Assembly: GCA_017450205.1 (NCBI GenBank)
Contig: JAFSVF010000007.1
Span: 44,060-108,059 of the forward strand
DNA from: Bacilli bacterium
GTDB taxonomy: Bacteria > Bacillota_I > Bacilli_A > RF39 > UBA660
DNA: 64,000 nt
Direction of reading: 5' to 3'
Of the stretch, positions 37,602 through 54,831 are shown piece after piece. The position numbers and the translations under genes are program-made. The notes below the pieces were generated by a model. The model was not told the origin of the DNA. It did no database searches and saw only the letters and a program-made list of their open reading frames with translations. The stretch's first letter is position 1. The number at the start of each line of letters is the position of its first letter.

Positions 37602-37624
37602 TTAATTAAGATAGGAGAATATAT

Positions 37625-38503: not shown

Positions 38504-38510
38504 TTAATAT

Positions 38511-38543
38511 AAAGAGTTTATTTCATATAAACTCTTTTTTTTA
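38511..38543 (+). terminator. rho-independent terminator after tsf
   Basis: agagtttat / ataaactct stem followed by T8. Confidence 0.55.
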
Positions 38544-38694
38544 CTTATTTTTAATTTTGGTCCAAAAAATCGCATTTTTTATTCATTTTATTGACAAATA
38601 TAAGAAAAATATCATTTTTTGGTCCAATAATTAATAAAAAACTTGATTTTCATCATTTTTTGTTTATTATTAAAATTAGGAAGTGGTAAAGTGT

Positions 38695-40014: not shown

Positions 40015-40457
40015 ATATATTTTTAGCATCTCCTTTTTCTCAATTTTGTGAAGGAGATTCAGATATAATTGTAGAAAATAGATGGTTTTTTGAAAGATTA
40101 ATTAAGTTTTTTAAAAAAAATAAATTTGATTATTTTTGTTCTCAAGAAAGAGAAAATTGGGGAGAAAATTATGTGAGTCCCGAAGAAAGTATTATATGTG
40201 ATGTTAATGGAATTAAGGATTGTGATTTATTTGTTGCAATTCCTGGTAATCCTATTTCAGGTGGAGTACATGTAGAGATTGGATGGGCAAGCGCATATAA
40301 TAAAAAAATGTTAGTATTTTTAGATAAGAATATTGAATATAGTCCTATGATTTTAGGATTAAAAGAATTAACTGATTGTACTTTTATTTATTATGATGAT
40401 TTATTAACTGATGAAACTGTTGATTTAATTATAAAATCAATTAAGGAGGTAATTTAA
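40011..40457 (+). CDS. nucleoside 2-deoxyribosyltransferase-fold protein (NDT/MilB-BlsM-like)
   Basis: IFLASPFS N-terminus and GGVHVEIGWASAYNKKMLVFL with a candidate catalytic Glu. Confidence 0.6.
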   Translation: MNIFLASPFSQFCEGDSDIIVENRWFFERLIKFFKKNKFDYFCSQERENWGENYVSPEESIICDVNGIKDCDLFVAIPGNPISGGVHVEIGWASAYNKKMLVFLDKNIEYSPMILGLKELTDCTFIYYDDLLTDETVDLIIKSIKEVI

Positions 40458-40458
40458 T

Positions 40459-41463
40459 ATGTATCAAAAATTATTTCCTGAAATGTTAAAATTTGATAAT
40501 AAATTTCCTTTATATTATTGGATTTCACTTTCTAATAAATGTAATGCTAATTGTAAATTTTGTGATATTCACGAGAAAGAAGATATTAATACTAAAGTAG
40601 ATGTTTTTAAATTATTGGATAATATTAAAAATATTGGTGGAAAATATGTTCAATTTACCGGAGGTGGAGAACCTTTCGCAAATCCTGAAATCTTTGATTA
40701 TTTAGAATATGCTACCAAATTAGGTTTAAATATTGTTTTTATAACTAATGGATTTTTTCTTACAGAATCAATTGTAAAAAGATTTAAAAATTACAATATT
40801 AGAGCTATTTTTGTTTCAATAGATAGTCATTTAGCAAAAGTGCATAATGAGACTAGAAGTGTTAATAAACTATTTGAAAGAGCTACTGCTGGTATAAATA
40901 ATATAAAGCATTTATATCCAAATATAAAAATAATAATTAATCATGTTTTAAATGATTCAAATATTGATGATTTAGATAAATTTATTGCGTTAAAGGATGA
41001 AATTAAATACGATTATTTAAATCCTATTATTGTAAAGGAATGTCCTGAGTTTTATTTTACAGATGATCAGATAGATGATTATAAAAATAAAACTAACTTA
41101 TTATTAGAATTGGCTAAAAATCATAATGTTGAATTTTTATATGATGATATAAATTATTTTGTTGATTCTAAATATTTAAACGATGGTTCTGATTTAAGAA
41201 AAAATGATGTTCCTTGTAATGCTTTAAATTACGCTTCTTTTATAGATTGTGTAAGTGGAAATGTTTATCCATGTGATTGCAGTGTACATAGAGATTATGA
41301 CTATTATTGTTTTGGAAATGTTTTAGCTGATAATTTAGAAAAAATATATAGTAATGATAAATGTAAACAATTAAGAAAGGAATTAAAATGTGCGAGTAAG
41401 TGTAAGTCAAAATGTGATTATGCTAATGTTCATTTTAATTTACTAGTTAATGAAAAAAAATAG
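40459..41463 (+). CDS. radical SAM enzyme with C-terminal SPASM-like Cys-rich domain
   Basis: CNANCKFC (CxxxCxxC) motif. C-terminal cysteines CNALNYASFIDC...CDC...C...CKQLRKELKCASKCKSKC. Confidence 0.85.
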   Translation: MYQKLFPEMLKFDNKFPLYYWISLSNKCNANCKFCDIHEKEDINTKVDVFKLLDNIKNIGGKYVQFTGGGEPFANPEIFDYLEYATKLGLNIVFITNGFFLTESIVKRFKNYNIRAIFVSIDSHLAKVHNETRSVNKLFERATAGINNIKHLYPNIKIIINHVLNDSNIDDLDKFIALKDEIKYDYLNPIIVKECPEFYFTDDQIDDYKNKTNLLLELAKNHNVEFLYDDINYFVDSKYLNDGSDLRKNDVPCNALNYASFIDCVSGNVYPCDCSVHRDYDYYCFGNVLADNLEKIYSNDKCKQLRKELKCASKCKSKCDYANVHFNLLVNEKK

Positions 41464-42541
41464 TATTATTCTTTTAGCGGAAGATTTTGGGTTTGGTCCA
41501 GTTACCACATTAATTGAAATAGCTAAAGAGATTAAAAGAAGAGATAAAGATATTGAATTGATATTTATTGGTCCTAAGTTTTGTATTAATAAAATAAAAA
41601 GTGAAGGATTATGTGATAAATATGTTGATATTCGTTATATGCCAGAAGAAATTGAAAAAAACATAGATCTTTTTAAAAATGCTAATAAGATCTTAGCTGT
41701 TGAGACAACTGATATTCTTATTTATTTAATTAATAATTATGATTTAAAGAATATTTATTTAGTAGATAATTTATTTTGGATGTGGGATTTTTTAGAAGAA
41801 GAATTAAAAAAATTAAAAAGATATTATATTTCCGATGTTATATCGTGTGATGAAAACATCGAAAGAATTGGACAAGGATTTAATAATTTATATAAAGTTG
41901 GAATGTTAAGACATAACTATAATAAAGATATTAAAACTGATAATAATTTGATGATTTCATTAGGCGGAGCAAAATCTTATATGTTTAATAGTGATTTAAT
42001 ATATAAGTTCTATTTAAATGTTATTAATCATATTTTAAGTAATGCTAAAGCTAAGGAATTTAAAACTATTTATATTACTGGTGGTTCTGAACTAATAGAT
42101 TATTTAAAAGATAATTTAATTGTTTTAGATAATGTTATTTTAAACACTTATAATCATGATGAATATTTAGATAAATTACATTCTTGTCGTTATGCGATTA
42201 TGTCACCTGGGCTAGGTAATTTTAATGAAATTATTCTATCTAATATTAATACAATGTTTTTATTACCAATAAATTATAGTCAATATATTCAAAGACTAAA
42301 ATTTAAAAAGTATTATGATTATTTTGATTATCAAATTAATAATAAAGAGAGTGCAATTGAAGAATATTTAGAAGAATCAATTGGAGTTAATAAAGTAATT
42401 GATAATCTTAAAAAATATGATTTTAGTAGTTTTGATGCAGAAATAGAATCATTCTTTAACAAAAATGATGTAAATAAAAAAATAGACAAGGATAAATTTG
42501 ATACGAATGGAATTTGTGAAATAGTTGATGATTTATTATAG
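41450..42541 (+). CDS. hypothetical Rossmann-like protein, possibly GT-B glycosyltransferase-like
   Basis: 363 aa. Weak resemblance to GT28/MurG-like C-terminal features (GGSE...SPGLGNFNE). Confidence 0.3.
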   Translation: MKKNSIILLAEDFGFGPVTTLIEIAKEIKRRDKDIELIFIGPKFCINKIKSEGLCDKYVDIRYMPEEIEKNIDLFKNANKILAVETTDILIYLINNYDLKNIYLVDNLFWMWDFLEEELKKLKRYYISDVISCDENIERIGQGFNNLYKVGMLRHNYNKDIKTDNNLMISLGGAKSYMFNSDLIYKFYLNVINHILSNAKAKEFKTIYITGGSELIDYLKDNLIVLDNVILNTYNHDEYLDKLHSCRYAIMSPGLGNFNEIILSNINTMFLLPINYSQYIQRLKFKKYYDYFDYQINNKESAIEEYLEESIGVNKVIDNLKKYDFSSFDAEIESFFNKNDVNKKIDKDKFDTNGICEIVDDLL

Positions 42542-42549
42542 GAGTTAAT

Positions 42550-43716
42550 ATGAAAAAGATTTGTTTTGATCCTTTTTATGGTTTAAATTATATTGGTTTT
42601 AGAGAAAAGCTTAGAGTAAATAAGATTCTTAAGAATAAAAGCTTATTTAGATATGATGGTGTAAACATGCTTTATGAGTCTGATAAAGTAGAAGAAAGCC
42701 TTAAGAACATGTTTAATGAAGATGCATTACTTGTAAATAATGGAACAAGTGCACTAAAACTTTGCTTACTAGCCAATGGAATTGGTGAAGGTGATGAAGT
42801 AATAGTTCCTTGCTTATCATTTATTGCTACAGCTGCTTCTTGTTTATCTGTTGGAGCTATTCCTGTTTTTGCAGACATTGATGAGTCATTTTCTATTGAT
42901 CCTAATTCAATAGTTGAAAGAATTACAAAAAAAACTAAAGCTGTAGTGGTTGTTCACTATCAAGGATATTCATGTGATATGGATAAAATACTAGAAATAT
43001 GCAGAAAATATAATTTAGCTTTAATTGAAGATTGTGCTCAAGCTTTTGGTAGTAAGTATAATAATAAATTAATTGGTACATTTGGAAATAGTTCTGCTTT
43101 TAGTTTTCAAGCTTGCAAAGTTATAACTTGTGGAGAAGGTGGAGCTGTTATTTCTAAAGTTAATATGGATTATATTAATAGATATGCTGATAATGGTGGT
43201 TATAGAGAAAAAGACATGATGCCACTATGGAATAAAAGTTTTACAAGTTTTGGTGAAAATTTCAAAATAACAGATTATCAAAGTGCGTTATTAAGCATTC
43301 AATTAACGAGATTAGATAAAATAATTAATCATCAAAAATTAATATTTAATGCATTAACTGAAGGATTAAATAAATATAATCTTAGAAAGATTAATAAAAG
43401 TTCTGATATTATTCCTATGTCATTATGTGTTACTTTTAAAACTAAAATAGAATGCGATAAGTTTATTGATTATATGAATGACAATGGTATTGAATTTTCG
43501 AAAAGAATAACTAATTTTTTACCCAAATATAATACATTTGAAAAAGGTTTATCCCCTTATAAAAATAATTTTCCTTATAAGAATTATAAGGTTCAAATTT
43601 GTTTAAAAAGTTTAAATCTTTTGAATAGAAGTGCTTGGTTAGTTTTGAATTCAAAATTAAGTAAAAAAGAGATAAATTATATTAAAAATAAAATGGTAAG
43701 TTATTATGAAAAGTAA
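42550..43716 (+). CDS. DegT/DnrJ/EryC1/StrS-family PLP-dependent sugar aminotransferase
   Basis: GDEVIVPCLSFIATA...PVFADID segment and the SFQACKVITCGEGG catalytic Lys motif. Confidence 0.9.
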   Translation: MKKICFDPFYGLNYIGFREKLRVNKILKNKSLFRYDGVNMLYESDKVEESLKNMFNEDALLVNNGTSALKLCLLANGIGEGDEVIVPCLSFIATAASCLSVGAIPVFADIDESFSIDPNSIVERITKKTKAVVVVHYQGYSCDMDKILEICRKYNLALIEDCAQAFGSKYNNKLIGTFGNSSAFSFQACKVITCGEGGAVISKVNMDYINRYADNGGYREKDMMPLWNKSFTSFGENFKITDYQSALLSIQLTRLDKIINHQKLIFNALTEGLNKYNLRKINKSSDIIPMSLCVTFKTKIECDKFIDYMNDNGIEFSKRITNFLPKYNTFEKGLSPYKNNFPYKNYKVQICLKSLNLLNRSAWLVLNSKLSKKEINYIKNKMVSYYEK

Positions 43717-44518
43717 TTTTACAAATGATAAATTGTATAGAGATTCACTATATTTTAGATTTACAACTAATAAGATTAAGTCATCTAAGAATTTAGATAT
43801 AGTTAAATATTTTGGTAAGAATATTTGTTTTCAATATTTTGATAGTGCAATAGATGATGAAGATATATCTTTTTTAAAAAATATAAATAAATCTTCAAAT
43901 ATTCAATTTAGATACATTAATATGGATTCTAATTTATATAAGGTATTAAACATTAATTTTATTATTGATATTACAGATAAATGGAAAGCACCTATCCTAG
44001 AATTAAAGAAAAATGAAGTTGATAATTATGTTAATTCAAAATCATATAATTTTAGAAGAATGATTAAGAAGAATGATAATTATTTAAAAGAATTAAAATT
44101 TAAAAAAGGAAATACCTTTGATTTATGGAAGAATATTTTATATATAGATCAAAATAGTTGGAAGAGTGAAGAAGAAAGTGATATGTTTAATCTTTCTTAT
44201 GAACATATTACTTTGTTATCACAAATTAAGAATTCTGATATTGAAGTTGCTTATAAAAATGGCGTTCCAGTTGGTTATTCATTATTAATTTATTATAGCG
44301 GTATATATTATGCTGCTAAATGGGGAGCAACTGAAGAAGGAAGAAAATTAAATGCTGGAATAATTTGTTTATTTAATCAAATAAAAAGGTTATCTAAGAA
44401 GAAAGACTTATATATAGATTTATGGGGAAGGAATAATAAGATTTATGATAGAATTGCTACAAGTTTTATTGATAGATGTTATTTAAGGATTAGTAAAAAT
44501 GGAAGTAAAAAGAATTAA
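43706..44518 (+). CDS. hypothetical protein, possibly FemAB/BioF2-like GNAT-fold transferase
   Basis: 270 aa. Weak similarity to Acetyltransf_6-type domains. Coupled within the operon. Confidence 0.35.
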   Translation: MKSNFTNDKLYRDSLYFRFTTNKIKSSKNLDIVKYFGKNICFQYFDSAIDDEDISFLKNINKSSNIQFRYINMDSNLYKVLNINFIIDITDKWKAPILELKKNEVDNYVNSKSYNFRRMIKKNDNYLKELKFKKGNTFDLWKNILYIDQNSWKSEEESDMFNLSYEHITLLSQIKNSDIEVAYKNGVPVGYSLLIYYSGIYYAAKWGATEEGRKLNAGIICLFNQIKRLSKKKDLYIDLWGRNNKIYDRIATSFIDRCYLRISKNGSKKN

Positions 44519-45461
44519 ACTCAAAAGTTTAAAAAATATCAATGAATTAGTTGATAATTCTTATAATGGAACATCTTTTTCATATGATTTCTTTTTGAAA
44601 CTTAAAAATGTTGAATATGTTTTATGTGTTTATGATGAAGATAAATTAGTATCTTTTATGCCATTATTTGAAGATAATGGTGATTTGAATCAATCTACCA
44701 TGTATATTCCTTATGGTGGTCCTGTAATTCTATATAATTTTCCTTCTTATAGAAAAAATATTATATATACCAGAAATATTTTAAATGTTATATGTTTGTA
44801 TTTAAAGAATAATTATAAGAATGTATGTTTATCATTAGATCCATTATTAACTGATATTATTTCTTTTGTAAAAAATGGTTTTATTCCTGAAGTTAGATAT
44901 ACTTATAAGATTGATCTAAACGATAATCTTGATATGATTTATTCTAATTTTGGTAGAGATAGAAAGAAACAAATTAAGCTTTGTAAGAATTATAAAGTGA
45001 TTTTTGATGATAAGTGTTCACTTTTTGATTTAGAAAAGGCTCTTATTTGGGAATATAACTATAGTAATGATATAAGTGTAGATTTTACCAAAAAGTATTT
45101 AAGTGAAGCTATCAAAAATAATAATGGTAAAATATTTTTAGCTTCTGATGGAGAAAAAATATTAGGTGGCGTTGCGATAGTTTGGGATAATAAAAATGCA
45201 TATATTATGTATTCATATTATGATAAAACAACAACTACAGTTATTCCTTTCTTATATTATGAGATTATTAAATATTTAAAAGATCATAATATATGTGAAA
45301 ATTTAGATTTTGAAGGATCAGTATTTAAAGAAATAGAAGAATGGAATCTTTCATTTGGATCTAAGCAAGTTTTATATTTTAATTTTTATTATGGAGAAAA
45401 TAGAGAAGAATTATTTAATGACTTGTACGATTATGGTGAAAAAAATGACAAATATGTATAA
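44499..45461 (+). CDS. FemAB/BioF2-like (GNAT-fold, possibly aminoacyl-tRNA-dependent) transferase
   Basis: C-terminal segment ...IVWDNKNAYIMYSYYD...IPFLYYEIIKYLKDHNICENLDFEGS resembles FemX/BioF2-like cores. Confidence 0.45.
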   Translation: MEVKRIKLKSLKNINELVDNSYNGTSFSYDFFLKLKNVEYVLCVYDEDKLVSFMPLFEDNGDLNQSTMYIPYGGPVILYNFPSYRKNIIYTRNILNVICLYLKNNYKNVCLSLDPLLTDIISFVKNGFIPEVRYTYKIDLNDNLDMIYSNFGRDRKKQIKLCKNYKVIFDDKCSLFDLEKALIWEYNYSNDISVDFTKKYLSEAIKNNNGKIFLASDGEKILGGVAIVWDNKNAYIMYSYYDKTTTTVIPFLYYEIIKYLKDHNICENLDFEGSVFKEIEEWNLSFGSKQVLYFNFYYGENREELFNDLYDYGEKNDKYV

Positions 45462-46320
45462 ATATTATTCTAACAGTGGTACTGAATCTTTTGATGTTAT
45501 TTTTAAATCCGATTTTTTCAAAAATGGTGATGAAGTAATTGTACCTGTTTCATTATGTGAATGTGTAATTAATTCTATTATAAAGAATTCATTAGTTCCT
45601 GTTTTTGTAGATATTGATAAAAATTTTTTGATAAAAAAAGAAGACATTAAAAAGAAAATTACCAATAAAACAAGGGCAATCATTTTTGTTGAACAATATG
45701 GTTTTGATATTAATAATGTTTGTACTTATAAGAATAAGAAAAATGAAAAAATTATAAATATATTGGATTCTTGTCAAAATATCATTAAAAATAATAATTC
45801 TGATTATGATTTTATTGTTTATTCCTTTAATAAGAATAAACCTATAAGTATTGGTAAATATTCATTATTTTATTCAAGTAAAAAAATAAATTTTGAGTAT
45901 AAAATTAGTCTTAAATTAAGGTTTATTATTAATTTTAAAAGATTATTATTTTTATTTAAATATTTAAAAAGAAGACATATTTATAATTTTATAAAAAAGA
46001 ATTTGCTTATACATGGGTATTTTATTAGTCATAGTAACTCTTCATTACATAGAATAGTATTTATTATGAAAATCACAAAAAAAGGTTTTATTAAATTAGA
46101 TGATAAATTATATGAATTTTTAGATAAGAATAATTTTAATTGTGTTCAAACTACAATTGAAGTTTCACCATTTGAAAGATTAAAAATTAAAGACGAGTTT
46201 AAACAATTTAATGATTATAGATATAAAGCATTGTATTTTAGACCATCATTCAAAAAAAGTGAATATTTAAAAGTTATTAAATACTTGAATGATATATGGG
46301 GTGATTTAAATGAAAATTGA
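45445..46320 (+). CDS. divergent N-terminally truncated DegT-like protein
   Basis: GDEVIVPVSLCECVINSI...PVFVDID...TRAIIFVEQYG and YSFNKNKPISIG mirror DegT motifs, but the protein is about 80 aa shorter. The ATG at 45445 overlaps the upstream stop. Confidence 0.4.
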   Translation: MTNMYKYYSNSGTESFDVIFKSDFFKNGDEVIVPVSLCECVINSIIKNSLVPVFVDIDKNFLIKKEDIKKKITNKTRAIIFVEQYGFDINNVCTYKNKKNEKIINILDSCQNIIKNNNSDYDFIVYSFNKNKPISIGKYSLFYSSKKINFEYKISLKLRFIINFKRLLFLFKYLKRRHIYNFIKKNLLIHGYFISHSNSSLHRIVFIMKITKKGFIKLDDKLYEFLDKNNFNCVQTTIEVSPFERLKIKDEFKQFNDYRYKALYFRPSFKKSEYLKVIKYLNDIWGDLNEN

Positions 46321-47773
46321 TTATGTACATAAAGAATTAATTTCTAGAAAACCATATTTATTAGAAGATAATTTTTGTCCAAATGTAGGTTTATTTGAAT
46401 ATGGAAAATCAGAAAACGTTGATAAAGTTTTATATGGAGCAAATGTTTATAGATATGATATTTATAACTATAGAGATGATGAAGATAGGATTAAGAACCT
46501 TGGTGGTGGTGATCCTATTCAATTTAAGACGTATAAATACATAAATAAAGATATTAATTCTTATTTAAAGAAAAATAAATTAAATGATTATCCTCATACT
46601 TCAGGTGATGAAGAAGTAAAAAATAAACTAATTGATTATCTTAAAAGTATTGGTATAAGTGATGTTAATGAAGAAGAACTTCTTATAACTGCTTCTACTA
46701 CTCATGGTTATTCTTTAATTTTAAAATCTATTATTAGGCCGCATGATGTTGTAATAATACCAACACCAACTTATGGTTTATTTGTTTATGAACCTGAAAA
46801 ACTTGGCGGAAGAGTAGAGTTTATTGAACTTCATGAAGATAAGAATTGGAAATTAGATTTAAAAGAGTTTGAAGATTTAATAATTAAAATTAATAAAGAT
46901 TTAAAGAATAAATATAAAGATTTAGGATATACTCCAAGAGTAGTTTCTATTTATCATCAAAATCCTAATAATCCTTTAGGAATTACTTATTCCAAAAAGG
47001 ATAAAAAGTATTTAAAAGATTTTTTAAAAATTTGTGAAAAATATAAATTATTGGTTATTGATGATTTAGTTTATAGAGATTCAGTATACGATTTAGATGA
47101 TATATCTATACCACTTGCTTCTTTTAAAGAATATAAAGATTGTGTTATTTCTTTATTTGGTATTTCAAAATCATTTTCCCTTGCGGCATTAAGAACTGGT
47201 TTTATACACGGAAATAAATATATTATTCAAGATATCAGAGATAGTTTATTTATTCAAATGGATTCTATTTCAATGTTAAGTCAAATAGCTTTATCTAGCG
47301 TATTTAATAATGATACAAAGAGAGTTGAATATAGAGAAAAATTTTTAAGTAAAATTAAGCAAAAATATTTAGATAACCTAGATATTATTAAATTTTTTGT
47401 CAATGGTGAGACTGATATTTCATCTAGAAATAAAAGAAGAATCAAGAGATTATTAAAAGGTAATTATAATAAGTATAAAGATGGAAATAAAGATGTAAGT
47501 ATTTATCATAATCTTATTCCTAAATCTGGATTCTTTATATTATTAGATTTTTCTAAATTTAAAGGGAAAAAGATTAATAGGAAACTTATTAAAAATGATA
47601 TAGATTTCTTAATCGAGATTTATAAGTGTTCTAAAATTAAATTTCTTCCTGGTAATTCATTTGCATGGAATAATACGGATGATATTATTGGAAGAATTAC
47701 ATTTTCTAAGCCTTTTGAAACATTGTTATTTGATTTTAAATCTTTAATGGATGTTTTAAATGGTTTTAAATAG
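46310..47773 (+). CDS. class I/II PLP-dependent aminotransferase-like protein
   Basis: NPNNPLG segment and the SKSFSLAALRTG motif containing the PLP-binding Lys. Confidence 0.7.
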   Translation: MKIDYVHKELISRKPYLLEDNFCPNVGLFEYGKSENVDKVLYGANVYRYDIYNYRDDEDRIKNLGGGDPIQFKTYKYINKDINSYLKKNKLNDYPHTSGDEEVKNKLIDYLKSIGISDVNEEELLITASTTHGYSLILKSIIRPHDVVIIPTPTYGLFVYEPEKLGGRVEFIELHEDKNWKLDLKEFEDLIIKINKDLKNKYKDLGYTPRVVSIYHQNPNNPLGITYSKKDKKYLKDFLKICEKYKLLVIDDLVYRDSVYDLDDISIPLASFKEYKDCVISLFGISKSFSLAALRTGFIHGNKYIIQDIRDSLFIQMDSISMLSQIALSSVFNNDTKRVEYREKFLSKIKQKYLDNLDIIKFFVNGETDISSRNKRRIKRLLKGNYNKYKDGNKDVSIYHNLIPKSGFFILLDFSKFKGKKINRKLIKNDIDFLIEIYKCSKIKFLPGNSFAWNNTDDIIGRITFSKPFETLLFDFKSLMDVLNGFK

Positions 47774-47782
47774 GGTGTTTAT

Positions 47783-48643
47783 ATGAATAAGTATATTGAT
47801 TTACATTGTCATTCAACTTTTAGTGATGGTGATTATAGTGTTGATGAATTAGTTCAAATGGCTAAGAATAATAATGTTGGATTTTTTAGTATAACTGATC
47901 ATGATAAAGTAGATGCTTGTTCTCATAAAGTAAATGATGAGGATATAACTATGGTTAATGGAATAGAATTATCTACTTATTATAAATATAATAATGAAAT
48001 TTGTTATATTCATTTATTGGGTTATGATTTTAATCCATATAATAAGAAATTACTTAATGAACTTAAAAGAATGAGAGAGATATTAATTGATGATAGTACT
48101 AGATTTGTTAATTGTTTATTGAGTAAAAAAATACCATTAGCTCCTAATGTTATTGAACAAATAGATGTTTCTAGTTATAGACTTATTCAGGATCAATTAA
48201 AAATTGTTATGTTAAATAATGGTTATGATGAGAAATATTATAAATTTATTAGTTCTATTATTAAAGATGATTATCCATTATATGAAGATTATGAAATTGA
48301 ATTAGGTAAAGCAATTGATATTATATTAGAAGCTGATGGTATTCCTGTTTTAGCACATCCTAATAGAATTCATATAAGCGAAGAGAAAAAAGATTCTTTA
48401 ATTAAAGAGTTAAAAAATAAAGGTCTTATGGGAATTGAAAGCAATTATTCTTATTATAGTGATTATGAATTTGATTTATATTCTAAAATAGCAAAAAAAT
48501 ATTCTTTACTTGAATCAGTTGGTTCTGATTTCCACTTTTATACTAAAGAAAATAATGTTAATATAGGAAGTGGGATAAATTCTAATCTTCTAAAAGAAGA
48601 TTGCTCACTTAAGAGAGTATTGATAGAGAGGCCATTAAGATGA
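47783..48643 (+). CDS. PHP-family metal-dependent phosphoesterase
   Basis: IDLHCHSTFSDGDYSVDELV...ITDHD motif, typical of PHP/histidinol-phosphatase-like enzymes. Confidence 0.8.
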   Translation: MNKYIDLHCHSTFSDGDYSVDELVQMAKNNNVGFFSITDHDKVDACSHKVNDEDITMVNGIELSTYYKYNNEICYIHLLGYDFNPYNKKLLNELKRMREILIDDSTRFVNCLLSKKIPLAPNVIEQIDVSSYRLIQDQLKIVMLNNGYDEKYYKFISSIIKDDYPLYEDYEIELGKAIDIILEADGIPVLAHPNRIHISEEKKDSLIKELKNKGLMGIESNYSYYSDYEFDLYSKIAKKYSLLESVGSDFHFYTKENNVNIGSGINSNLLKEDCSLKRVLIERPLR

Positions 48644-49404
48644 AAAGCAAGATAGATGAAATAATGAAGAACGCAACAATTAATGATATAAGTATTGGTT
48701 GTTCAGGAGATAGTGTTAAAGAAATAGTTAAAAACGATAAAACTTATTATTTGAAAAAGGCTAAAGGGAATAAACTTGATAAAGAATATTATATGTTTAA
48801 TTATTTAAGTGAATTACATTTAGCTCCAAAAATAGTTGAGTTTAAATTTGATGGTGAATATAGTTATTTATTTACTGAAAAACTATCTGGTGATATGATT
48901 TGTTGTGATGAAATTTTTGATGATATGAATCATGTTATTGAATTAGCAGCAAAGGCAATCAACATTTTACAATCAATTGATGTTGATACTTGTCCTTTTT
49001 ATAATAATTTAAATATTAAATTAAGAACTGCTAAATATAATATTGAACATGGATTGGTAAAGACTGAAGATATGTCTGAAGAGAGCCAAAAAAGATTTGG
49101 AAGTGTAGAAAGGGCATATGAGTATTTAGTTAATAATAAAATTGTAGAAGAAAAATTAGTGTTTTCTCATGGAGATTTAAGTATTCCAAATATATTTTAT
49201 GAAAATGAAGAAATTACAGGATTTGTTGATTTAGGAGATTCTGGAATTGCTGATATGTGGTTTGATATAGCAATTTTAGTTAAATCTTTAAGAAAAAATT
49301 ATGAAACTGATGAAGCAGAGAAGTATTTATTTAAACTATTAGGAATTGAACCAAAATATGATATTATAGATTATTATATTATTTTAACAGATGTATTTTT
49401 ATAA
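48640..49404 (+). CDS. aminoglycoside 3'-phosphotransferase-family kinase (APH(3')-like)
   Basis: VFSHGDLSIPNIFYENEEITGFVDLGDSGIADMWFDIA aligns along its length with APH(3')-III-type catalytic and Mg-binding motifs. Gly-rich loop GCSGDSV...YYLKK. Confidence 0.85.
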   Translation: MKSKIDEIMKNATINDISIGCSGDSVKEIVKNDKTYYLKKAKGNKLDKEYYMFNYLSELHLAPKIVEFKFDGEYSYLFTEKLSGDMICCDEIFDDMNHVIELAAKAINILQSIDVDTCPFYNNLNIKLRTAKYNIEHGLVKTEDMSEESQKRFGSVERAYEYLVNNKIVEEKLVFSHGDLSIPNIFYENEEITGFVDLGDSGIADMWFDIAILVKSLRKNYETDEAEKYLFKLLGIEPKYDIIDYYIILTDVFL

Positions 49405-49422
49405 AAAACAGGGGGTGATATT

Positions 49423-51066
49423 ATGCAAATATTAAATGTAAATGAGTTAGGAATGAATTTTGGGTTCGGAACATTATTTAGTAATTTATCTTTTACTTTA
49501 AATGAAGGAGAATCTATTTCAATTGTTGGTCCAAATGGATGTGGAAAATCCACATTATTAAAGATTATTGCTGGTTTAGAAAAACAAGATTGTGGTCAAG
49601 TAAGTATTAAAAAAGGTGCTAAAGTAGCTTATTTAGATCAAACTGGTGCTTCAAAGGATGATTCAAGAAAAGTATATGATGTTTTAAAAGAATCTTTTGG
49701 TAGTTTATATGAATTAGAAAAAGATATTAAAGAGTTAGAAAAAACTATGGAAGCACAACCAGACAATTCTAAAATAATTGAAAAGTATTGTGTTATGATT
49801 GATAAGTTTTCTCAATTAGGTGGATATGAGATGGATTCTACTATTAATACAGTATTATCTGGATTAAGAATTGATTCTAAAGTTCTAGAACAATCATTTA
49901 ATAATTTAAGTGGTGGAGAAAAAACTTTAATTCAATTATGTAAATGTTTAATTACTAAACCGGATTTATTGTTATTAGATGAACCAACAAACCATTTAGA
50001 TATAGAAAGAATAGAATGGTTAGAAAAATATATTAAGAATTTTAAAGGTGCTTGTGTAATTGTTTCACATGATAGATATTTCTTAGATAAAATGTGTAAT
50101 AAGATTTTAGATTTAGAAGATAAAGAACCTGAAATTTTTAATACTAATTATACTGGTTATTTAGAAGAAAAAGAAAATAGATTTGAAAAACAATTAGCTG
50201 AATATAAAGATCAACAATTAGTTATTAAAAGATTAGAAACTGAAATGAAAATGTTTGCGGAACGTGGTATGCAAACTAACAGTTCTACCTTGACAGCAAG
50301 AGCTCATGCGCTTCAAACTAGAATTAATAAAATTAAAGAAAATGCTGTTGCTAGACCAGTTAAAAGAAAAAAATCAAATATTGAATTTAATGAAGAAGCT
50401 AAATCTAGTAAAAAGATAATTCAAGTTAATGATTTAACTGTTATGTTACCAAATGCTGATCTTTTATTAGATGATATTAGTTTTGATATTAAAGCTGGTG
50501 AAAGAATTGCTTTAATTGGTTCAAATGGATGTGGAAAATCAACAATTGTTAAATCAATTATGGGTACTAATGACTTAGAGTATGATGGTGAAATAATAAT
50601 TGGACCTAGTGTTAAAATCGGATACATTCCTCAAATTATTCAATTTAGTGATGAGAAGAAGTCATTACTAGAATACTTTAGAAATGCTACTGGTTTACCT
50701 GAACAAAGGATTAGACAAATACTTGTTGGTTTCCAATTCTATAATGATTCAATTATGAAGAGAGTAGGAAATCTTTCTGGTGGTGAAAGAATGAAATTAA
50801 AATTAGCTGAGTTGTTACAAAATAAAGTTAATACATTAATTTTAGATGAACCAACAAACCATATAGATATTGATACTAAAGAGGTATTTGAAAGCGCTTT
50901 AGATGATTACAATGGAACAATGATTTTTGTATCACATGATAGATATTTTATTAATAAATTTGCGGATAAGATTTATGAAATTGATAATGGTAAATTAGAT
51001 ATTTATTATGGCGATTATGATTATTATGCTGAAAAGAAAGCTCAACAATTAGTAAGAAAAAGATAA
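49423..51066 (+). CDS. ABC-F family ATPase (tandem ABC domains with inter-domain linker; ARE/ribosome-protection-like)
   Basis: Two Walker A motifs (GPNGCGKST, GSNGCGKST), two LSGGE signatures and no TM domain. Confidence 0.9.
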   Translation: MQILNVNELGMNFGFGTLFSNLSFTLNEGESISIVGPNGCGKSTLLKIIAGLEKQDCGQVSIKKGAKVAYLDQTGASKDDSRKVYDVLKESFGSLYELEKDIKELEKTMEAQPDNSKIIEKYCVMIDKFSQLGGYEMDSTINTVLSGLRIDSKVLEQSFNNLSGGEKTLIQLCKCLITKPDLLLLDEPTNHLDIERIEWLEKYIKNFKGACVIVSHDRYFLDKMCNKILDLEDKEPEIFNTNYTGYLEEKENRFEKQLAEYKDQQLVIKRLETEMKMFAERGMQTNSSTLTARAHALQTRINKIKENAVARPVKRKKSNIEFNEEAKSSKKIIQVNDLTVMLPNADLLLDDISFDIKAGERIALIGSNGCGKSTIVKSIMGTNDLEYDGEIIIGPSVKIGYIPQIIQFSDEKKSLLEYFRNATGLPEQRIRQILVGFQFYNDSIMKRVGNLSGGERMKLKLAELLQNKVNTLILDEPTNHIDIDTKEVFESALDDYNGTMIFVSHDRYFINKFADKIYEIDNGKLDIYYGDYDYYAEKKAQQLVRKR

Positions 51067-51070
51067 TTTA

Positions 51071-51097
51071 AAGATATCATTTGATATCTTTTTTTTG
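51071..51097 (+). terminator. rho-independent terminator ending the operon
   Basis: aagatatca / tgatatctt stem followed by T6. Confidence 0.5.
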
Positions 51098-51300
51098 ACA
51101 CTTTTTATATTTATTATTTTATATGTGTAAGTAATATAAGAGTTAGTAATTATGAATTGTTTTTTTATAAAAAATAATGAAGAAGAGTGAATTATATGAA
51201 TGATATGAATTAATAAAAGATCAATAAAGAAATATATGTTAAATATTTATTTTTCAATAAATATATGATATAAATGATGTAGAGGAAGCATTATCAATTA

Positions 51301-51486
51301 ATGTTATCTCGGTTTGGGTTAACGCCTAGTCAATGACTAGGTGTTTTTTATTAACCAAAACCCCTGAAAGAAAAGACTCCTTCTATATGATCAATAAAAG
51401 AATAATTATAAGTAAAATAAAGATAATCTTATCTCTTCTGCTCATAACTAAACACCTCACATTCACTTAGAATGCCGAGATAACAT
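51301..51486. repeat. nested inverted-repeat structured element
   Basis: Outer IR aatgttatctcgg (51301-13) / ccgagataacat (51475-86). Inner IR ggtttgggttaa / ttaaccaaaacc encloses the hairpin cctagtcaatgactagg followed by T6. Confidence 0.4.
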
Positions 51487-51780
51487 CAAGATAAATAATC
51501 CTCTAATATTATATATACACGGTCGAAGTCCATTTTTCTCATTTTTATATTTAAAACTTTAAAAATATTTGTAAATTTCAAAAAAATGCTATTTCCAAAA
51601 CTAAATTAAATTAATAGTAAATAAATTTAATATCTTTTTTTATGATTTTATTATAAAATTAGTTTAGGAGGCTAACTATTAAAAGTCAATAATTTTTAAT
51701 AGTAGTTATAAATTGGAAGAGAATCCCACGCCAAAAAGATTTCACTTTCGTGAAATTTTTGAAAAAAATAATTATTTTAG

Positions 51781-52947
51781 TTATTTCAATAAAGACGGAT
51801 CAAAAAGGATATTTTGAGTTTCGAGTTTGTAAATAACTCTAAGTAGTTTTTTACAAACATGAGATAATGCAACACGATGATTTTTACCTTCTGAACGTTT
51901 CTTTAAGTAAAAATCATAAAAAGTCGGGTTATATTTAATAACAATATTTGCAATATTCATTAAAGAATATCTTAAATATCCAGAACCACGCTTAACCATT
52001 TTACCATTACATGAAATAGTACCTGATTGGTATATTCCAGGTTCTAAACCTGCAAATGATAATAATTTATCTGCATTTGAAAATTTATTAAAATCTCCAT
52101 ATTCAGATATGATTACAGCTGTGGTAAGTTCACCAATTCCTGGAATAGAAAGTGTTGGTGGATTTAGTTCTTTGACAATTGTAGAAATTTGTTTATCAAT
52201 TGAATTTATTTTTGAATCAATTTCGTTGTAAAGGCAAATAAGAGTTTGAAGTTCAATTTCAAATACTTCGTTTGATTCACCAATCGTATTTTTTGCAAGT
52301 TCTTTAAGTTTTGCAAATTTAGCATAAGTTAAGTGACATTTAGATAGTTTATTTGGTGTTTCAAAATCACGCATATTAGCCATTTTTTCAGCAGTACCAT
52401 ATTTATTAAGAAAATATAACGATGTAACTGAAAACTTATTATTAAAAAATGGTTTAAACTCAGGAAAAATAATATCTAATATATTAGTTAATTGAACCAT
52501 ATATTTAGATCTTTGTTTTACTAAAGATTCTCTTAGTCTTGAAAGTGACTTGATTGAATATTTATGATAAAATAGTTTTGAATTTGGGGTGTATGGAACT
52601 GACATAAGTTTTTGACAAATTATAATAGCATCAACTTTATCAGTTTTAGTTCTTCTTAAAGTTAATGATTTTTTAAATTCTTTAACTAATAAAGGATTAA
52701 ATTCCATAAAATTATAATTATTCTTTTCTAAGAATAATTTCAAATTCAAACCGTAATGTCCAGTGGCTTCGAGACCGATATGGACATTTTCATTATCATA
52801 GGATTTCAACAAGTCTAGAAATCGTTGGAATCCTTTTTTATTATTTTCAAATGATAAATTTTCTACAATGATTTCACCTGTATCTTTACAGATGAAACAA
52901 TCGTGTTTGTATTTTGATATATCTATTCCAACATATATCATATACAT
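51781..52947 (-). CDS. IS110-family transposase (DEDD RuvC-like N-terminus + C-terminal Tnp domain)
   Basis: N-terminal YVGIDISKYKHDCFI and conserved family architecture. 388 aa. Confidence 0.85.
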   Translation of the reverse strand: MYMIYVGIDISKYKHDCFICKDTGEIIVENLSFENNKKGFQRFLDLLKSYDNENVHIGLEATGHYGLNLKLFLEKNNYNFMEFNPLLVKEFKKSLTLRRTKTDKVDAIIICQKLMSVPYTPNSKLFYHKYSIKSLSRLRESLVKQRSKYMVQLTNILDIIFPEFKPFFNNKFSVTSLYFLNKYGTAEKMANMRDFETPNKLSKCHLTYAKFAKLKELAKNTIGESNEVFEIELQTLICLYNEIDSKINSIDKQISTIVKELNPPTLSIPGIGELTTAVIISEYGDFNKFSNADKLLSFAGLEPGIYQSGTISCNGKMVKRGSGYLRYSLMNIANIVIKYNPTFYDFYLKKRSEGKNHRVALSHVCKKLLRVIYKLETQNILFDPSLLK

Positions 52948-53223
52948 GCACCTCCTTGATTAGATTTTTTTGCACTGTTTGTTTGGCCACAAGTTTTTCT
53001 TATTTTGTATCCTCGCTGAACATATAAAACATCAAAGTGTTAACTAACTAATCAACAATTAAATAAAAAATCTGTGGTAAGAGCCTCCTTGACCAGTCAA
53101 GCCGGAACTATACAGAAACAAATCCACAGTGCGATTCTTATTATATAAAATAATAAGAAAATATAAAATGAAAGGAATCAATTAAAAGGATCAATTCCTT
53201 AATATTGATTATACGAGGATTAT

Positions 53224-54831
53224 ATGAAAAATATTAAATTATTATTAGGTATCATTTTAGAAGTATTAATTGTATTCTTTATGTATTACTTTATGTTACC
53301 TGCAATTAATATTCACTCAATTGGGTTTTGGGCATTTATATTTATTGCATTAATCATTTGGGAATTCATTTATTTAATTGTATGTTCTACAGAAAGAATA
53401 GAAAGAATCTTTAAAGGAAGAAGAATTGATGTACAAAATAAATTTAGTATTGTACCATTTATATTAGCTTTTGCTATTATAATTGTAATTGTAGTAATTA
53501 ATTTCTTTGCATCTCCTTTATTTAATGCTAAAAGTTATTCAAGAAGAATAACAGTAGATGAAACTGGAGACTTTATAAAAGATATTAATGAAGTTGATTT
53601 TAACTCTTTACCACTTCTAGATAGAGATTCTTCTGAAAAACTAGGAGATAGAGTAATGGGTCAAATGAGTGACTTTGTATCACAATATTATGTAAGTGAT
53701 CAATACTCACAAATTAATTATAATAATGATATTATTAGAGTTACTTCACTTGAATATGCTGACTTTATAAAATGGATCAGTAATAGAAAAGAAGGAGTTA
53801 AAGGTTATATTACAGTTAACTCAGTTAATGGAGAAGCAAATCTAGTTAAATTAGATAAAGGTATGAAATATATGCCTAGTGCTCACTTTAATGAAAAACT
53901 AGTTAGAGTATTAAGATTTAAGTATCCAACATTAATTTTTGGAGCAGAAAAGTTTGAAATTGATAATGAAGGAAATCCTTATTGGATTATTCCAACATAT
54001 ACTTACACAGCATTTGGTCTTAAGACTAAAGTAACTGGAGTAGTTATTCTAGATCCAATCACAGGAAAGTCTAAACACTATAAAATAGATGATGTTCCTA
54101 CATGGGTAGATAATGCTTATAACGCTGATTTAATTATCGAACAAGTAAATGACTGGGGAACATATAGAAATGGCTTTATTAATAGTGTATTTGGCCAAAA
54201 GAACGTTGTTAATACTACTCAAGGATATAATTACTTAGCTATGAATGATGATGTATATTTATATACAGGAATCACTTCAGTATTAAGTGATGAATCTAAT
54301 TTAGGGTTTATCTTAACTAATATGAGAACAGGTAAGACAGTATTCTACTCAGTACCAGGTGCTGAAGAGTATAGTGCTATGTCATCTGCTGAAGGTCAAG
54401 TTCAACAAATGTCATATAAATCTACATTCCCACTTTTAATCAATTTAAATAATAAACCAACTTATTTAGTTAGTTTAAAAGATGCAGCAGGACTAGTTAA
54501 GATGTATGGTTTTATTGATGTAGCAGACTATCAAAAAGTAGTAGTTACGGATGCTTCTCAAGGAATTAAAACAGCAGCTCAAAACTATTTAAATCAATAT
54601 GCTGAAGAAATTAGTGAAGACTTACTAATCAAAGAAACAATCAAAGTAGATAAGATTACTAGTGCTAATAAGAATGGTAATACTTATTATTATGTAACTT
54701 CTAATAATAAAAAATATGTAATATCTATTGAACTAAGTGATGAACTTCCATTTGTTAATACAGGAGATACTTTAAATATTGGATATTATGAATCAGATAA
54801 AAAGATAATAGAAGTTGTTAAATTAATATAA
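53224..54831 (+). CDS. hypothetical membrane-anchored protein
   Basis: Three N-terminal TM helices followed by a large extracytoplasmic domain. 535 aa. Confidence 0.4.
   Translation: MKNIKLLLGIILEVLIVFFMYYFMLPAINIHSIGFWAFIFIALIIWEFIYLIVCSTERIERIFKGRRIDVQNKFSIVPFILAFAIIIVIVVINFFASPLFNAKSYSRRITVDETGDFIKDINEVDFNSLPLLDRDSSEKLGDRVMGQMSDFVSQYYVSDQYSQINYNNDIIRVTSLEYADFIKWISNRKEGVKGYITVNSVNGEANLVKLDKGMKYMPSAHFNEKLVRVLRFKYPTLIFGAEKFEIDNEGNPYWIIPTYTYTAFGLKTKVTGVVILDPITGKSKHYKIDDVPTWVDNAYNADLIIEQVNDWGTYRNGFINSVFGQKNVVNTTQGYNYLAMNDDVYLYTGITSVLSDESNLGFILTNMRTGKTVFYSVPGAEEYSAMSSAEGQVQQMSYKSTFPLLINLNNKPTYLVSLKDAAGLVKMYGFIDVADYQKVVVTDASQGIKTAAQNYLNQYAEEISEDLLIKETIKVDKITSANKNGNTYYYVTSNNKKYVISIELSDELPFVNTGDTLNIGYYESDKKIIEVVKLI

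What the first reader, a model, noticed from the sequence alone, without database searches (positions are those of the whole stretch)
51100..53220. IS110-family element flanking the cluster, with candidate bridge-RNA regions on both sides of the transposase
A DEDD-type IS110-family transposase (minus strand) sits right after the cluster terminator. Members of this family carry a structured non-coding bridge RNA in a non-coding end. In the IS110 subgroup it is upstream of the recombinase; in IS1111-like elements it is downstream. The upstream 52948-53220 region contains a ctgtgg...ccacag stem-loop (about 53084-53150). The downstream roughly 700 bp contains a strongly structured nested inverted repeat. 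The element also marks the distal boundary of the putative acquired island.
Basis: partly seen in the sequence, partly recalled or inferred. Interest (0 to 1): 0.6.

Follow-up and report, generated by a model that had tools for sequence, protein, structure and literature searches.

The report
IS110 insertion sequence with bridge RNA
This is an intact 1.5-kb IS110-type jumping gene whose upstream end encodes a two-loop guide ("bridge") RNA and which has landed in the ribosome-binding site of a host gene; it is a new member of a known class, and the structured DNA downstream of it is not part of it.

Summary
The transposase is real and intact: 386 aa, DEDD and Transposase_20 domains, catalytic residues conserved. 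Homology to 80 related loci sets the element at window 51669-53217 (1547 bp, minus strand), not 51100-53220.

The 274-nt left end, upstream of the gene, encodes a ~161-177-nt bridge RNA (53132-52957). A covariance model built only from distant relatives hits it at 135 bits (E about 1e-26) and nothing else in the 64 kb.

Across about 60 independent insertions the loop strands covary with the flanking target and with the element ends, in the layout known for IS621. A TTGACT-17-TATAAT promoter would form on circularisation.

The family inserts between the Shine-Dalgarno sequence and the ATG of host genes, antisense, as IS900 and IS901 do. Here the target is ORF 53224.

The downstream candidate is rejected. 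The right end is only 110 nt, and the nested inverted repeat (51300-51490) lies outside the element. It looks like a separate small-RNA or toxin-like module.

Verdict: new member of a known kind, with modest interest.

The parts
51669..53217 (-). Whole IS110-group element. The body is 51671-53215. The 2-bp core (CT on the element strand, AG on the + strand) is present at both junctions, 51669-51670 and 53216-53217. Length is 1547 bp with one core copy.
   Evidence: blastn against 80 related loci: homology ends at 51664-51669 and 53217-53222. Per-locus end parsing gave 1547 bp. Coordinates were read back from the sequence.
51781..52941 (-). Recombinase/transposase CDS, 386 aa (an in-frame ATG at 52947 would give 388 aa). 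RBS AAGGAGG at 52950-52956.
   Evidence: Pfam and NCBIfam hits. Alignment to IS621 (PDB 8WT6) keeps GID, EATG, KTDxVDA and the SG serine. Called as 386 aa on 15 public contigs.
52957..53132 (-). Bridge RNA gene (covariance-model extent). The structured core is nt 1-161 = 53132-52972, closed by the helix GCACU (53132-53128) / AGUGC (52976-52972).
   Evidence: Model R2, built without this window, scores 135.2 bits, E=7.8e-27, and is the only significant hit in 64 kb. Model R1 scores 163 bits. The structure has 90.4% of cells paired against at most 58% for slid controls, with 11 compensatory pairs.
53074..53127 (-). Target-binding loop. The 5' strand is LTG UUUCUGUAUAGUU (53118-53106). The 3' strand is RTG UCAAGG (53092-53087) + core complement AG (53086-53085) + handshake GC (53084-53083).
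   Evidence: Sequence read-back. Family-wide guide/flank covariation: LTG z=5.6, RTG z=12.6, 0 of 5000 permutations each. Handshake guide versus donor end paired in 72 of 72 loci.
52997..53069 (-). Donor-binding loop. LDG UAGUUAGUU (53050-53042) matches the right end TAGTTAGCC. The 3' strand is RDG GCG (53016-53014) + core complement AG (53013-53012) + handshake GA (53011-53010), complementary to TC-CT-CGT at the left junction.
   Evidence: LDG versus LD: 7-9 of 9 matched in 71 loci, and all six loci with a changed LD carry the mirrored change in LDG. RDG versus RD paired in 69 of 70 loci, with GCA always found with TGTATAAT (7 of 7).
53140..53167 (-). Internal sigma-70-like promoter of the bridge RNA: TTTATA, 16 nt, TATAAT. 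The -10 box ends 7 nt before nt 1 of the RNA.
   Evidence: Promoter scan. The TATAAT is conserved in the left-end alignment of 75 loci.
53208..53215 (-). Left-end terminus CGTATAAT. It combines the RD guide target (CG) with the -10 box of the junction promoter (TATAAT, 53213-53208).
   Evidence: Conserved at the left terminus in nearly all loci. Read-back.
51671..51780 (-). Right end (110 nt). It ends ...TTGACTTTTAATAGTTAGC and holds the -35 box TTGACT (51689-51684) and the LD sequence.
   Evidence: The abutted RE+core+LE gives TTGACT-17 nt-TATAAT in this copy and in 64 of 66 relatives.
53218..53232 (+). Left target half (LT, read on the element strand as ATTTTTCATATAATC). On the + strand this is GATTAT + ATG (53224) of host ORF 53224-54831.
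   Evidence: LTG pairs with 12 of the 13 nt next to the core (8 Watson-Crick + 4 G-T/U-G wobble), two nt off the register in which the LTG also covers the core.
51655..51668 (+). Right target half (RT, element strand CCTAAACTAATTTT). On the + strand it reads ...AAAATTAGTTTAGG, the 5' half of the host gene's AGGAGGA Shine-Dalgarno sequence.
   Evidence: Reconstructed empty site TTAGTTTAGG|AG|GATTATATG. The uninterrupted sister-species site reads TTAGTAGGAGGATATTATG.

Best explanation
Window 51669-53217 (minus strand) is a complete IS110-group insertion sequence.

What it encodes. It carries a DEDD/serine recombinase. In its 274-nt left end it carries a bridge RNA of about 161-177 nt, transcribed from its own TTTATA-16-TATAAT promoter.

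How the RNA is laid out. The RNA has two internal loops.
- Target-binding loop: the 5' strand (LTG) has the sequence of the target's left half, and the 3' strand (RTG) is complementary to the CT core plus the target's right half. It is followed by a 2-3-nt handshake guide complementary to the last bases of the element's right end.
- Donor-binding loop: it recognises the abutted ends, ...TAGTTAGC-CT-CGT..., in the same way.

Inferred mechanism, by analogy with IS621. The element excises or copies out as a circle. The RE-LE joint forms a TTGACT-17-TATAAT promoter. The recombinase-RNA complex then synapses the joint with a target and exchanges strands at the CT core, leaving the core at both junctions.

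Target choice. In this clade the guides are tuned to the antisense strand of Shine-Dalgarno-spacer-ATG regions. This copy sits inside the AGGAGGA of ORF 53224, antisense to it.

Shown here: anatomy, ends, core, RNA structure, guide/DNA covariation, intact catalytic residues, several flank contexts.
Inferred: transcription, RNA binding, circle formation, current mobility.
For: Protein. Family assignment. Catalytic residues align with IS621 in PDB 8WT6.

Ends. They are defined by 80 loci. Whole-element contigs of 1549-1667 bp exist (L013, L014).

Empty site. The CT core is present at both junctions. The reconstructed empty site AGG|AG|GATTATATG matches the uninterrupted AGGAGGATATTATG of a sister species.

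RNA. Seven helices have 90.4% of cells paired against at most 58% for slid controls, with 11 compensatory pairs and 0 of 500 shuffles reaching the observed value. A leave-out covariance model scores 135 bits, E=7.8e-27.

Guide/DNA covariation.
- LTG versus left flank: z=5.6. RTG versus right flank: z=12.6. 0 of 5000 permutations each.
- Target-loop handshake guide versus LD: 72 of 72 loci paired, in three pair types. RDG versus RD: 69 of 70.
- LDG versus LD: all six variant loci carry the mirrored change.
- The layout equals the published IS621 scheme (PMC11208158, PMC11208160).

Junction promoter. Conserved in 64 of 66 loci.

Target preference. 50 of 56 loci have CAT 4-12 nt left of the core, against 27% at control positions. 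47 of these open an antisense ORF of at least 60 aa (or one still open at the contig end).

Other copies. Contigs from other metagenome samples carry the element at 99.9% identity with different flanks. Site B/c (AAAAGG|AG|GACTATATGG) fits the LTG at 13 of 13 positions.
Against: - No expression, circle or transposition data exist for this element.
- In the register where the LTG also covers the core, this copy's LTG pairs poorly (6 exact + 3 wobble of 13). The good match needs a 2-nt shift. With wobble allowed, the pattern is degenerate: 43 sites with at least 12 of 13 in 128 kb, about what shuffles give. The match at this one position is therefore only about p=1e-3.
- The RTG matches only CCT beyond the core.
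- All public contigs that carry the neighbouring genes have the IS at this site, so this copy looks fixed.
- One strain has a broken transposase (L084).
- Contigs that mix flank pairs may be assembly chimeras, so the copy number is uncertain.
- Rfam 15 gave no hit to the left end. The RNA assignment therefore rests on models built here.
Confidence: 0.9

Rival explanations
1. IS1111-like arrangement. The guide (seek/bridge) RNA lies downstream of the transposase, and the nested inverted repeat at 51300-51490 is that RNA.
For: The region is strongly structured, with z=-4.8 and -6.5. IS1111-group elements do place the RNA in a long right end (PMC11187229).
Against: - Homology of all 80 relatives ends at 51669-51671, which leaves a 110-nt right end.
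- The inverted-repeat region is absent from the relatives' loci.
- The bridge-RNA model scores at most 5.5 bits there with filters off.
- Part of the region (51180-51353) recurs in another genome (L135) with no transposase ORF on the 3.1-kb contig.
- The left end already holds both the target and the donor loops.
Confidence: 0.02
2. The left-end structure is only a leader or promoter region that regulates transposase expression, and has no role in guiding DNA recognition.
For: The RNA lies directly upstream of the RBS. [quoted passage not shown] Nothing here shows that the RNA binds the protein.
Against: The hypervariable loop strands track the flanking target sequence across about 60 independent insertions. 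The other loop tracks changes in the element's own ends, including mirrored changes. A pure leader would not be expected to do either.
Confidence: 0.05
3. It is a genuine IS110/bridge-RNA element, but this particular copy is an immobile, fixed relic whose guide no longer fits its own site.
For: The IS occupies this site in every public contig that carries the neighbouring genes. The LTG fits only with a 2-nt register shift and four wobbles. A transposase-disrupted variant exists (L084).
Against: - The ORF is intact, with all catalytic residues.
- Both promoters and both termini are intact.
- Copies at 99.9% identity sit in other flanks, and separate contigs of 1552-1653 bp span the whole element or most of it, as expected for a recently active repeat.
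- Other loci such as L024 use the same +2 register at 10 of 11 exact matches.
Confidence: 0.2

Closest known systems
IS621 (E. coli), the IS110-group bridge-RNA recombinase (Durrant et al. 2024, PMC11208160; Hiraizumi et al. 2024, PMC11208158)
   Same: - DEDD + Tnp-domain recombinase with the same catalytic residues.
- Long left end that encodes a ~177-nt RNA upstream of the gene, and a short right end.
- CT core.
- Target-binding loop followed by donor-binding loop, each with a 5' guide identical to the top strand and a 3' guide complementary to it, plus handshake guides.
- A 13-nt strand between the basal and distal stems of the target loop.
- A promoter formed at the RE-LE joint.
- ATA...TAT sub-terminal trinucleotides.
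   Different: - Protein similarity is distant (phmmer E=8e-21, two partial stretches).
- No 5' stem-loop ahead of the target loop. Instead a 5-bp helix joins the RNA's 5' and 3' ends, followed by a small 3' hairpin.
- A sister subgroup uses a CA core.
- The LTG register relative to the core varies among loci (0 to +2).
- The target is a Shine-Dalgarno/start-codon region.
IS900 / IS901 (Mycobacterium avium), IS110-family elements
   Same: Insertion between the Shine-Dalgarno sequence and the start codon of host genes (PMC2942039, citing Doran 1997 and Inglis 2003). The transposase gene lies antisense to the target gene here. A fixed orientation is also recalled for IS900, from the reporter's own memory.
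   Different: Host phylum and base composition differ. Relatedness of the proteins and of any IS900 bridge RNA was not tested here. The IS900 consensus (CATG N4-6 * CNCCTT) is recalled from memory only.
CazIS110-1 (Caloranaerobacter azorensis; bioRxiv 10.1101/2025.10.25.684509)
   Same: [quoted passage not shown] It is multi-copy.
   Different: Sequence relatedness was not tested. The two pathways reported there (copy-out and direct transfer with a target-loop-only RNA) cannot be assessed from sequence.
IS1111-group elements and seekRNA (ISEc11 etc.; Siddiquee et al. 2024, PMC11187229)
   Same: DEDD transposase and RNA-guided target choice.
   Different: In those elements the RNA lies downstream of the gene in a long right end, with 7-17-bp sub-terminal inverted repeats. 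Here the right end is 110 nt, the RNA is upstream, and only ATA/TAT trinucleotides flank the donor.

Membership tests
IS110 family, IS110 group (bridge-RNA-guided IS) | Recombinase with an N-terminal DEDD (RuvC-like) domain and a C-terminal Tnp domain carrying the catalytic serine | tested here: met
   PF01548 at 2e-34 and PF02371 at 1.6e-22. NF033542 at 223.6 bits, above the cutoff of 140. The D, E, D, D and S positions align with IS621 in PDB 8WT6.
IS110 family, IS110 group (bridge-RNA-guided IS) | Long non-coding left end upstream of the gene, short right end, no terminal inverted repeats, short ATA/TAT sub-terminal repeat | tested here: met
   LE is 274 nt (53215-52942) and RE is 110 nt. 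The ends read ...ATAGTTAGC and CGTATAAT.... The repeat scan reported no inverted repeat at the two termini. The ATA/TAT pattern is as described.
IS110 family, IS110 group (bridge-RNA-guided IS) | Dinucleotide core shared by target and donor and found at both junctions | tested here: met
   CT is present at 53217-53216 and at 51670-51669 (element strand). The empty site in a sister species has a single AG in AGGAGGAT.
IS110 family, IS110 group (bridge-RNA-guided IS) | Structured ncRNA with two internal loops in the left end, supported by covariation | tested here: met
   (pair counts and controls). Leave-out covariance model at 135 bits.
IS110 family, IS110 group (bridge-RNA-guided IS) | Target-binding-loop strands base-pair with the left target (bottom strand) and the right target (top strand) | tested here: met
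   Family-wide permutation tests gave z=5.6 and z=12.6. This copy: LTG 12 of 13 with 4 wobbles at a +2 register. RTG + core + handshake are complementary to 8 contiguous nt of the RE junction. The fit of this single copy is only moderate.
IS110 family, IS110 group (bridge-RNA-guided IS) | Donor-binding-loop strands base-pair with the abutted RE-LE ends, and handshake guides pair with the non-cognate DNA | tested here: met
   LDG/LD in 71 loci, with 6 mirrored changes. RDG/RD in 69 of 70 loci. Target-loop handshake guide versus LD in 72 of 72 loci. The donor-loop handshake guide versus LT is weaker: both bases pair in 19 of 62 loci and one base in 38 of 62.
IS110 family, IS110 group (bridge-RNA-guided IS) | Promoter reconstituted across the RE-LE joint of a circular intermediate | tested here: met
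   The sequence-level joint TTGACT-17-TATAAT is present in this copy and in 64 of 66 relatives. The existence of the circle itself is not testable with these tools.
IS110 family, IS110 group (bridge-RNA-guided IS) | RNA is expressed, binds the recombinase and is required for recombination | not testable with these tools
   Needs RNA-seq, pull-down and a recombination assay.
IS1111 group (seekRNA downstream) | Guide RNA in a long right end downstream of the transposase, with 7-17-bp sub-terminal inverted repeats | tested here: not met
   RE is 110 nt. There is no model hit downstream. Homology stops at 51669-51671.
IS900/IS901-type targeting of translation-initiation signals | Insertion between the Shine-Dalgarno sequence and the start codon, in one orientation | tested here: met
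   50 of 56 loci, with spacing mostly 5-6 nt, and 47 with an antisense ORF. In this copy the ATG is 6 nt from the core. Phylogenetic kinship with IS900 was not tested.
Any Rfam 15 family | Score at or above the family's gathering threshold | tested here: not met
   Only a tRNA (15477-15550) passes in the window. In 50900-53400 there are only chance-level hits with E>=0.16.

The most novel reading that the evidence does not exclude
This clade from gut Bacilli and Clostridia may be a distinct architectural variant of the bridge-RNA system, in three respects:
- The RNA lacks the 5' stem-loop of IS621 and is closed by a 5'-3' helix.
- The left target guide pairs in variable register with respect to the core.
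- Its target loop is evolutionarily held on the antisense strand of Shine-Dalgarno-spacer-ATG regions while its distal bases are re-programmed from gene to gene.

If so, this would give an RNA-guided explanation for the long-known 'translation-initiation-signal' targeting of IS900-type elements. It would also provide a natural set of more than 50 re-programmed guide/target pairs.
Probability: 0.3. Interest if true: 0.45.

Novelty: new member of a known kind. Interest (0 to 1): 0.3.

Why it matters
- It settles the annotation. The region holds one 1547-bp RNA-guided IS with exact ends, core, RNA and guides. The adjacent structured DNA is something else.
- For IS110 biology, it adds an AT-rich clade from gut Bacilli in which about 60 natural insertions show guide/target, guide/donor and handshake covariation. 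It also links bridge-RNA guidance to the Shine-Dalgarno/start-codon targeting described for IS900 and IS901.
- For the host, the insertion separates gene 53224 from half of its ribosome-binding site and from its upstream promoter region.
- None of this changes the current understanding of the family.

Tried and rejected
- Rfam 15, at gathering thresholds and at E<=10: no family matches either non-coding region.
- Exact look-up of the 388-aa ORF found nothing, because public gene calls start at Met3. The 386-aa form is on 15 contigs.
- Plasmid blastn gave only three weak partial hits to other transposase genes (two annotated as IS110 family). Phage blastn of the downstream region gave none.
- Metagenome pattern scans for the downstream hairpin: the 32-mer gave none. 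The 17-mer gave 38 loci, of which only L135 is truly homologous, over 178 bp.
- Reading the LTG in the register where it also covers the core (as in IS621) fits this copy poorly. Registers 0, +1 and +2 each carry signal in different loci. The register question is left open.
- I first reconstructed the target with a 4-bp TCCT overlap. Comparison of the right ends across relatives (variation begins right after AGC-CT) and the sister-species empty site favour a 2-bp CT core.
- I guessed that window ORF 38683-40014 is the orthologue of the sister species' 447-aa gene. BLASTP shows no similarity.
- The 50-aa members of the transposase's 90% cluster are unrelated zinc-finger-like peptides, a clustering artefact.
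- The 20-aa hydrophobic ORF gave no Pfam match.
Full report
OBSERVATION. The minus-strand ORF 51781-52947 is an IS110-family recombinase. It matches Pfam DEDD_Tnp_IS110 (2e-34) and Transposase_20 (1.6e-22), and NCBIfam NF033542 'IS110 family RNA-guided transposase' at 223.6 bits against a cutoff of 140. Homologues and public gene calls begin at the third codon (ATG 52941), 9 nt after an AAGGAGG, giving 386 aa. Alignment to the solved IS621 recombinase (8WT6) conserves the GID, EATG and KTDxVDA acidic residues and the SG serine. The protein is therefore intact. The downstream nested inverted repeat is also real. Its outer arms are at 51302-51312 and 51475-51485, and a terminator-like hairpin is at 51321-51345. 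Folding z-scores are -4.8 and -6.5.

ENDS. A scan of one genome per species returned 80 loci encoding relatives at 53-89% identity. Most come from metagenome-assembled genomes labelled Bacilli, Clostridia, Erysipelotrichaceae or Mollicutes/Tenericutes. Nucleotide homology to the window stops at 51664-51669 on one side and at 53217-53222 on the other. Contigs of 1549-1667 bp consist of the element alone. Alignment of the termini gives, on the element strand, flank-CT|CGTATAATCA... at the left end and ...TTGACTTTTAATAGTTAGC|CT-flank at the right end. The element is 51671-53215 plus one copy of a CT core, 1547 bp in all. The core is present at both junctions, as AG on the + strand at 51669-70 and 53216-17. 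The left end is 274 nt and the right end is 110 nt.

TARGET SITE. Removing the element and one core restores TTAGTTTAGG|AG|GATTATATGAAAAAT. This is an AGGAGGA Shine-Dalgarno sequence followed by the ATG of ORF 53224-54831. A sister species, whose orthologue is 85% identical, has the uninterrupted TTAGTAGGAGGATATTATGAGAAAT at that position. The preference is general. In 50 of 56 related loci a CAT lies 4-12 nt (mostly 5-6) left of the core, against 27% at control positions. In 47 of these it opens an antisense ORF of at least 60 codons, or one still open at the contig end. Right flanks begin CCTC, CCTT, TCTCC or TTC. Insertion between Shine-Dalgarno and start codon is the behaviour reported for the IS110-family members IS900 and IS901 (PMC2942039, citing Doran 1997 and Inglis 2003).

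BRIDGE RNA. A TATAAT box conserved in the 75 aligned left ends sits 7 nt before a conserved GCACUGUGGAUUUG. From there, 69 non-identical sequences align over about 175 nt. I specified seven helices:
- a closing helix GCACU/AGUGC;
- the basal and distal stems of loop 1;
- two basal segments and the distal stem of loop 2;
- a small 3' hairpin.
These have 90.4% of cells paired, against 28-58% when partners are slid. Eleven pairs carry compensatory changes, and 0 of 500 shuffles reach the observed values. One clade has lost A3 and its partner U together, which supports the closing helix. A covariance model built only from 33 distant relatives, with the window excluded, hits 53132-52957 at 135.2 bits (E=7.8e-27). 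Nothing else in the 64 kb is significant. The full model scores at most 5.5 bits anywhere in 50900-51800 with filters off. Rfam has no matching family.

GUIDES. The published IS621 layout is as follows. The 5' strand of each loop equals the top strand of the left half-site. The 3' strand is complementary to core plus right half-site. It is followed by a 2-nt handshake guide that is complementary to the other DNA.

Loop 1 is the target loop. Its 13-nt 5' strand is hypervariable and matches the left flank: L056 11 of 11, L022 10 of 11, L024 10 of 11. Its 3' strand matches the right flank: L011 shows 12 contiguous nt, AGCCTTTCAAAA. Over 56-60 distinct flanks the cognate pairing exceeds all 5000 permutations, with LTG z=5.6 and RTG z=12.6. 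The two bases after the core complement pair with the last two bases of the right end in 72 of 72 loci, through three co-varying types: GC/GC, AC/GT and TC/GA. The core complement AG goes with a CT core and UG with a CA core.

Loop 2 is the donor loop. UAGUUAGUU matches TAGTTAG(C/T)C, and all six loci with an altered right end (TAGCTAG four times, TAGTTGG, TAGTTTG) carry the same change in the RNA. On the 3' strand, GCG or ACG accompanies CGTATAAT and GCA accompanies TGTATAAT, in 7 of 7 loci.

In the window the guides are LTG 53118-53106, RTG/core/handshake 53092-53083, LDG 53050-53042 and RDG/core/handshake 53016-53010.

THIS COPY. The 3' strand of the target loop (AAGGAGGCU) is complementary to 8 contiguous nt of the RE junction (AGCCTCCT). 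The LTG pairs with the 13 nt adjoining the core at 12 of 13 positions, but with four wobbles and a 2-nt shift. With wobble allowed, such a pattern occurs 43 times in 128 kb, so the match at this specific position is worth about p=1e-3.

Public metagenome contigs carrying the identical protein show the IS at this same site in every contig that carries the neighbouring genes. Other contigs carry the element at 99.9% identity with other flanks. These are a left flank B (TTCTTCCATATAGTC-CT) and right flanks b and c. Site B/c reconstructs to AAAAGG|AG|GACTATATGGAAGAA. That is again a Shine-Dalgarno-ATG site, nearly identical to the window's target. It fits the LTG at 13 of 13 positions (9 exact) and the RTG over CCTT. 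The element is therefore multi-copy, or recently was, although short-read chimeras across the repeat cannot be excluded. One strain has a split transposase (L084).

PROMOTERS. Abutting RE and LE gives TTGACT-17 nt-TATAAT, conserved in 64 of 66 relatives. This is the junction promoter known for the family. The bridge RNA has its own TTTATA-16-TATAAT promoter.

DOWNSTREAM REGION. Window 51067-51668 is not part of the element. It contains:
- the ABC-F terminator;
- a promoter-plus-terminator unit on the + strand (about 51270-51353), of which 51180-51353 is 90% identical to DNA lying just after tsf in another genome (L135);
- on the minus strand, a 20-aa hydrophobic ORF with a good RBS, inside a transcript-like region whose ends pair with each other.
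This resembles a type I toxin-antitoxin module, but that is only an idea (one search gave no family). The last ~45 nt before the IS are homologous to the native region upstream of gene A in the sister species.

Relative to that species (rpsB-tsf-one gene-gene A-Fic), the window has about 13 kb more between tsf and gene A. A variable or acquired region is therefore plausible. The IS, however, is an independent, RNA-directed insertion at the far edge of that region rather than its boundary.

COMPARISON AND VERDICT. Every sequence-testable defining feature of an IS110-group, bridge-RNA-guided element is met. The IS1111 arrangement is not. Differences from IS621 are of degree:
- distant protein similarity;
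- no 5' stem-loop, but a closing helix;
- a CT or CA core;
- variable LTG register;
- Shine-Dalgarno/ATG targets.
This is a new member of a known kind. Expression, RNA-protein binding, circle formation and present-day mobility are inferred, not shown.

Noticed in passing
window 51180-51490: A small-RNA-like unit lies on the + strand: a promoter-like TTTTCA...GATATAAAT, a transcript of about 80 nt, and a terminator at 51321-51345. It converges on a minus-strand 20-aa hydrophobic ORF, MSRRDKIIFILLIIILLLII (ATG 51445, RBS GAGGTG). The ends of the putative mRNA pair with each other (51485-51475 with 51312-51302). This may be a type I toxin-antitoxin-like module. Window 51180-51353 recurs at 90% identity after tsf in L135. 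Rfam gave only a sub-threshold 'drum' hit at 51260-51382 (17.6 bits, E=3.6).
   Followed up: partly
window 51079-51095 and 51625-51641: A 17-nt direct repeat, ATTTGATATCTTTTTTT / ATTTAATATCTTTTTTT, which is the 3' half of a terminator. The two copies bracket the 546-bp small-RNA/toxin-like segment, as if that segment had been inserted into a terminator.
   Followed up: partly
window 36645-53224; L143: Synteny. The window has rpsB (36645-37601), tsf (37625-38503), then about 13 kb (DUF1846 protein, radical-SAM/SPASM, DegT-type aminotransferase, PHP, APH/choline-kinase-like, ABC-F) before gene A and Fic. A sister species has rpsB-tsf-one 447-aa gene-gene A-Fic. The 40-51 kb stretch has 21-24% GC, against 26-33% in most 2-kb windows either side.
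   Followed up: partly
L100 (ERZ28018883), L091: In another sample, window 51245-51668 plus the IS is joined to the 3' end of an isoleucyl-tRNA synthetase gene instead of ABC-F, and to left flank B. The ABC-F contig from the same sample stops at 51258. Either the ~420-bp segment is duplicated in the genome or the contig is a chimera across two repeats.
   Followed up: partly
L100 1-78, L103 1-40 (left flank B): A second copy of the same IS sits in the Shine-Dalgarno sequence of a gene that starts MEEERKVAGIYIRVSTE.... This N-terminus looks like that of a serine recombinase (from memory, not tested).
   Followed up: no
L055, L076 (also L071): The two junctions of one element carry different cores: CT at the left junction and CA at the right junction, while the RNA specifies CA. 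This fits a target core that differs from the donor core, with each half-site keeping its own core, as expected if top strands are cut 3' of the core.
   Followed up: no
L006, L007, L009, L024, L025, L028, L017: Some relatives have about 150-170 extra nt between the transposase stop codon and the conserved right-end terminus, giving element lengths of 1704-1729 bp. This is an insertion or passenger segment in the right end.
   Followed up: no
window 15477-15550 (-): A tRNA gene, the only Rfam hit above threshold in the window.
   Followed up: no
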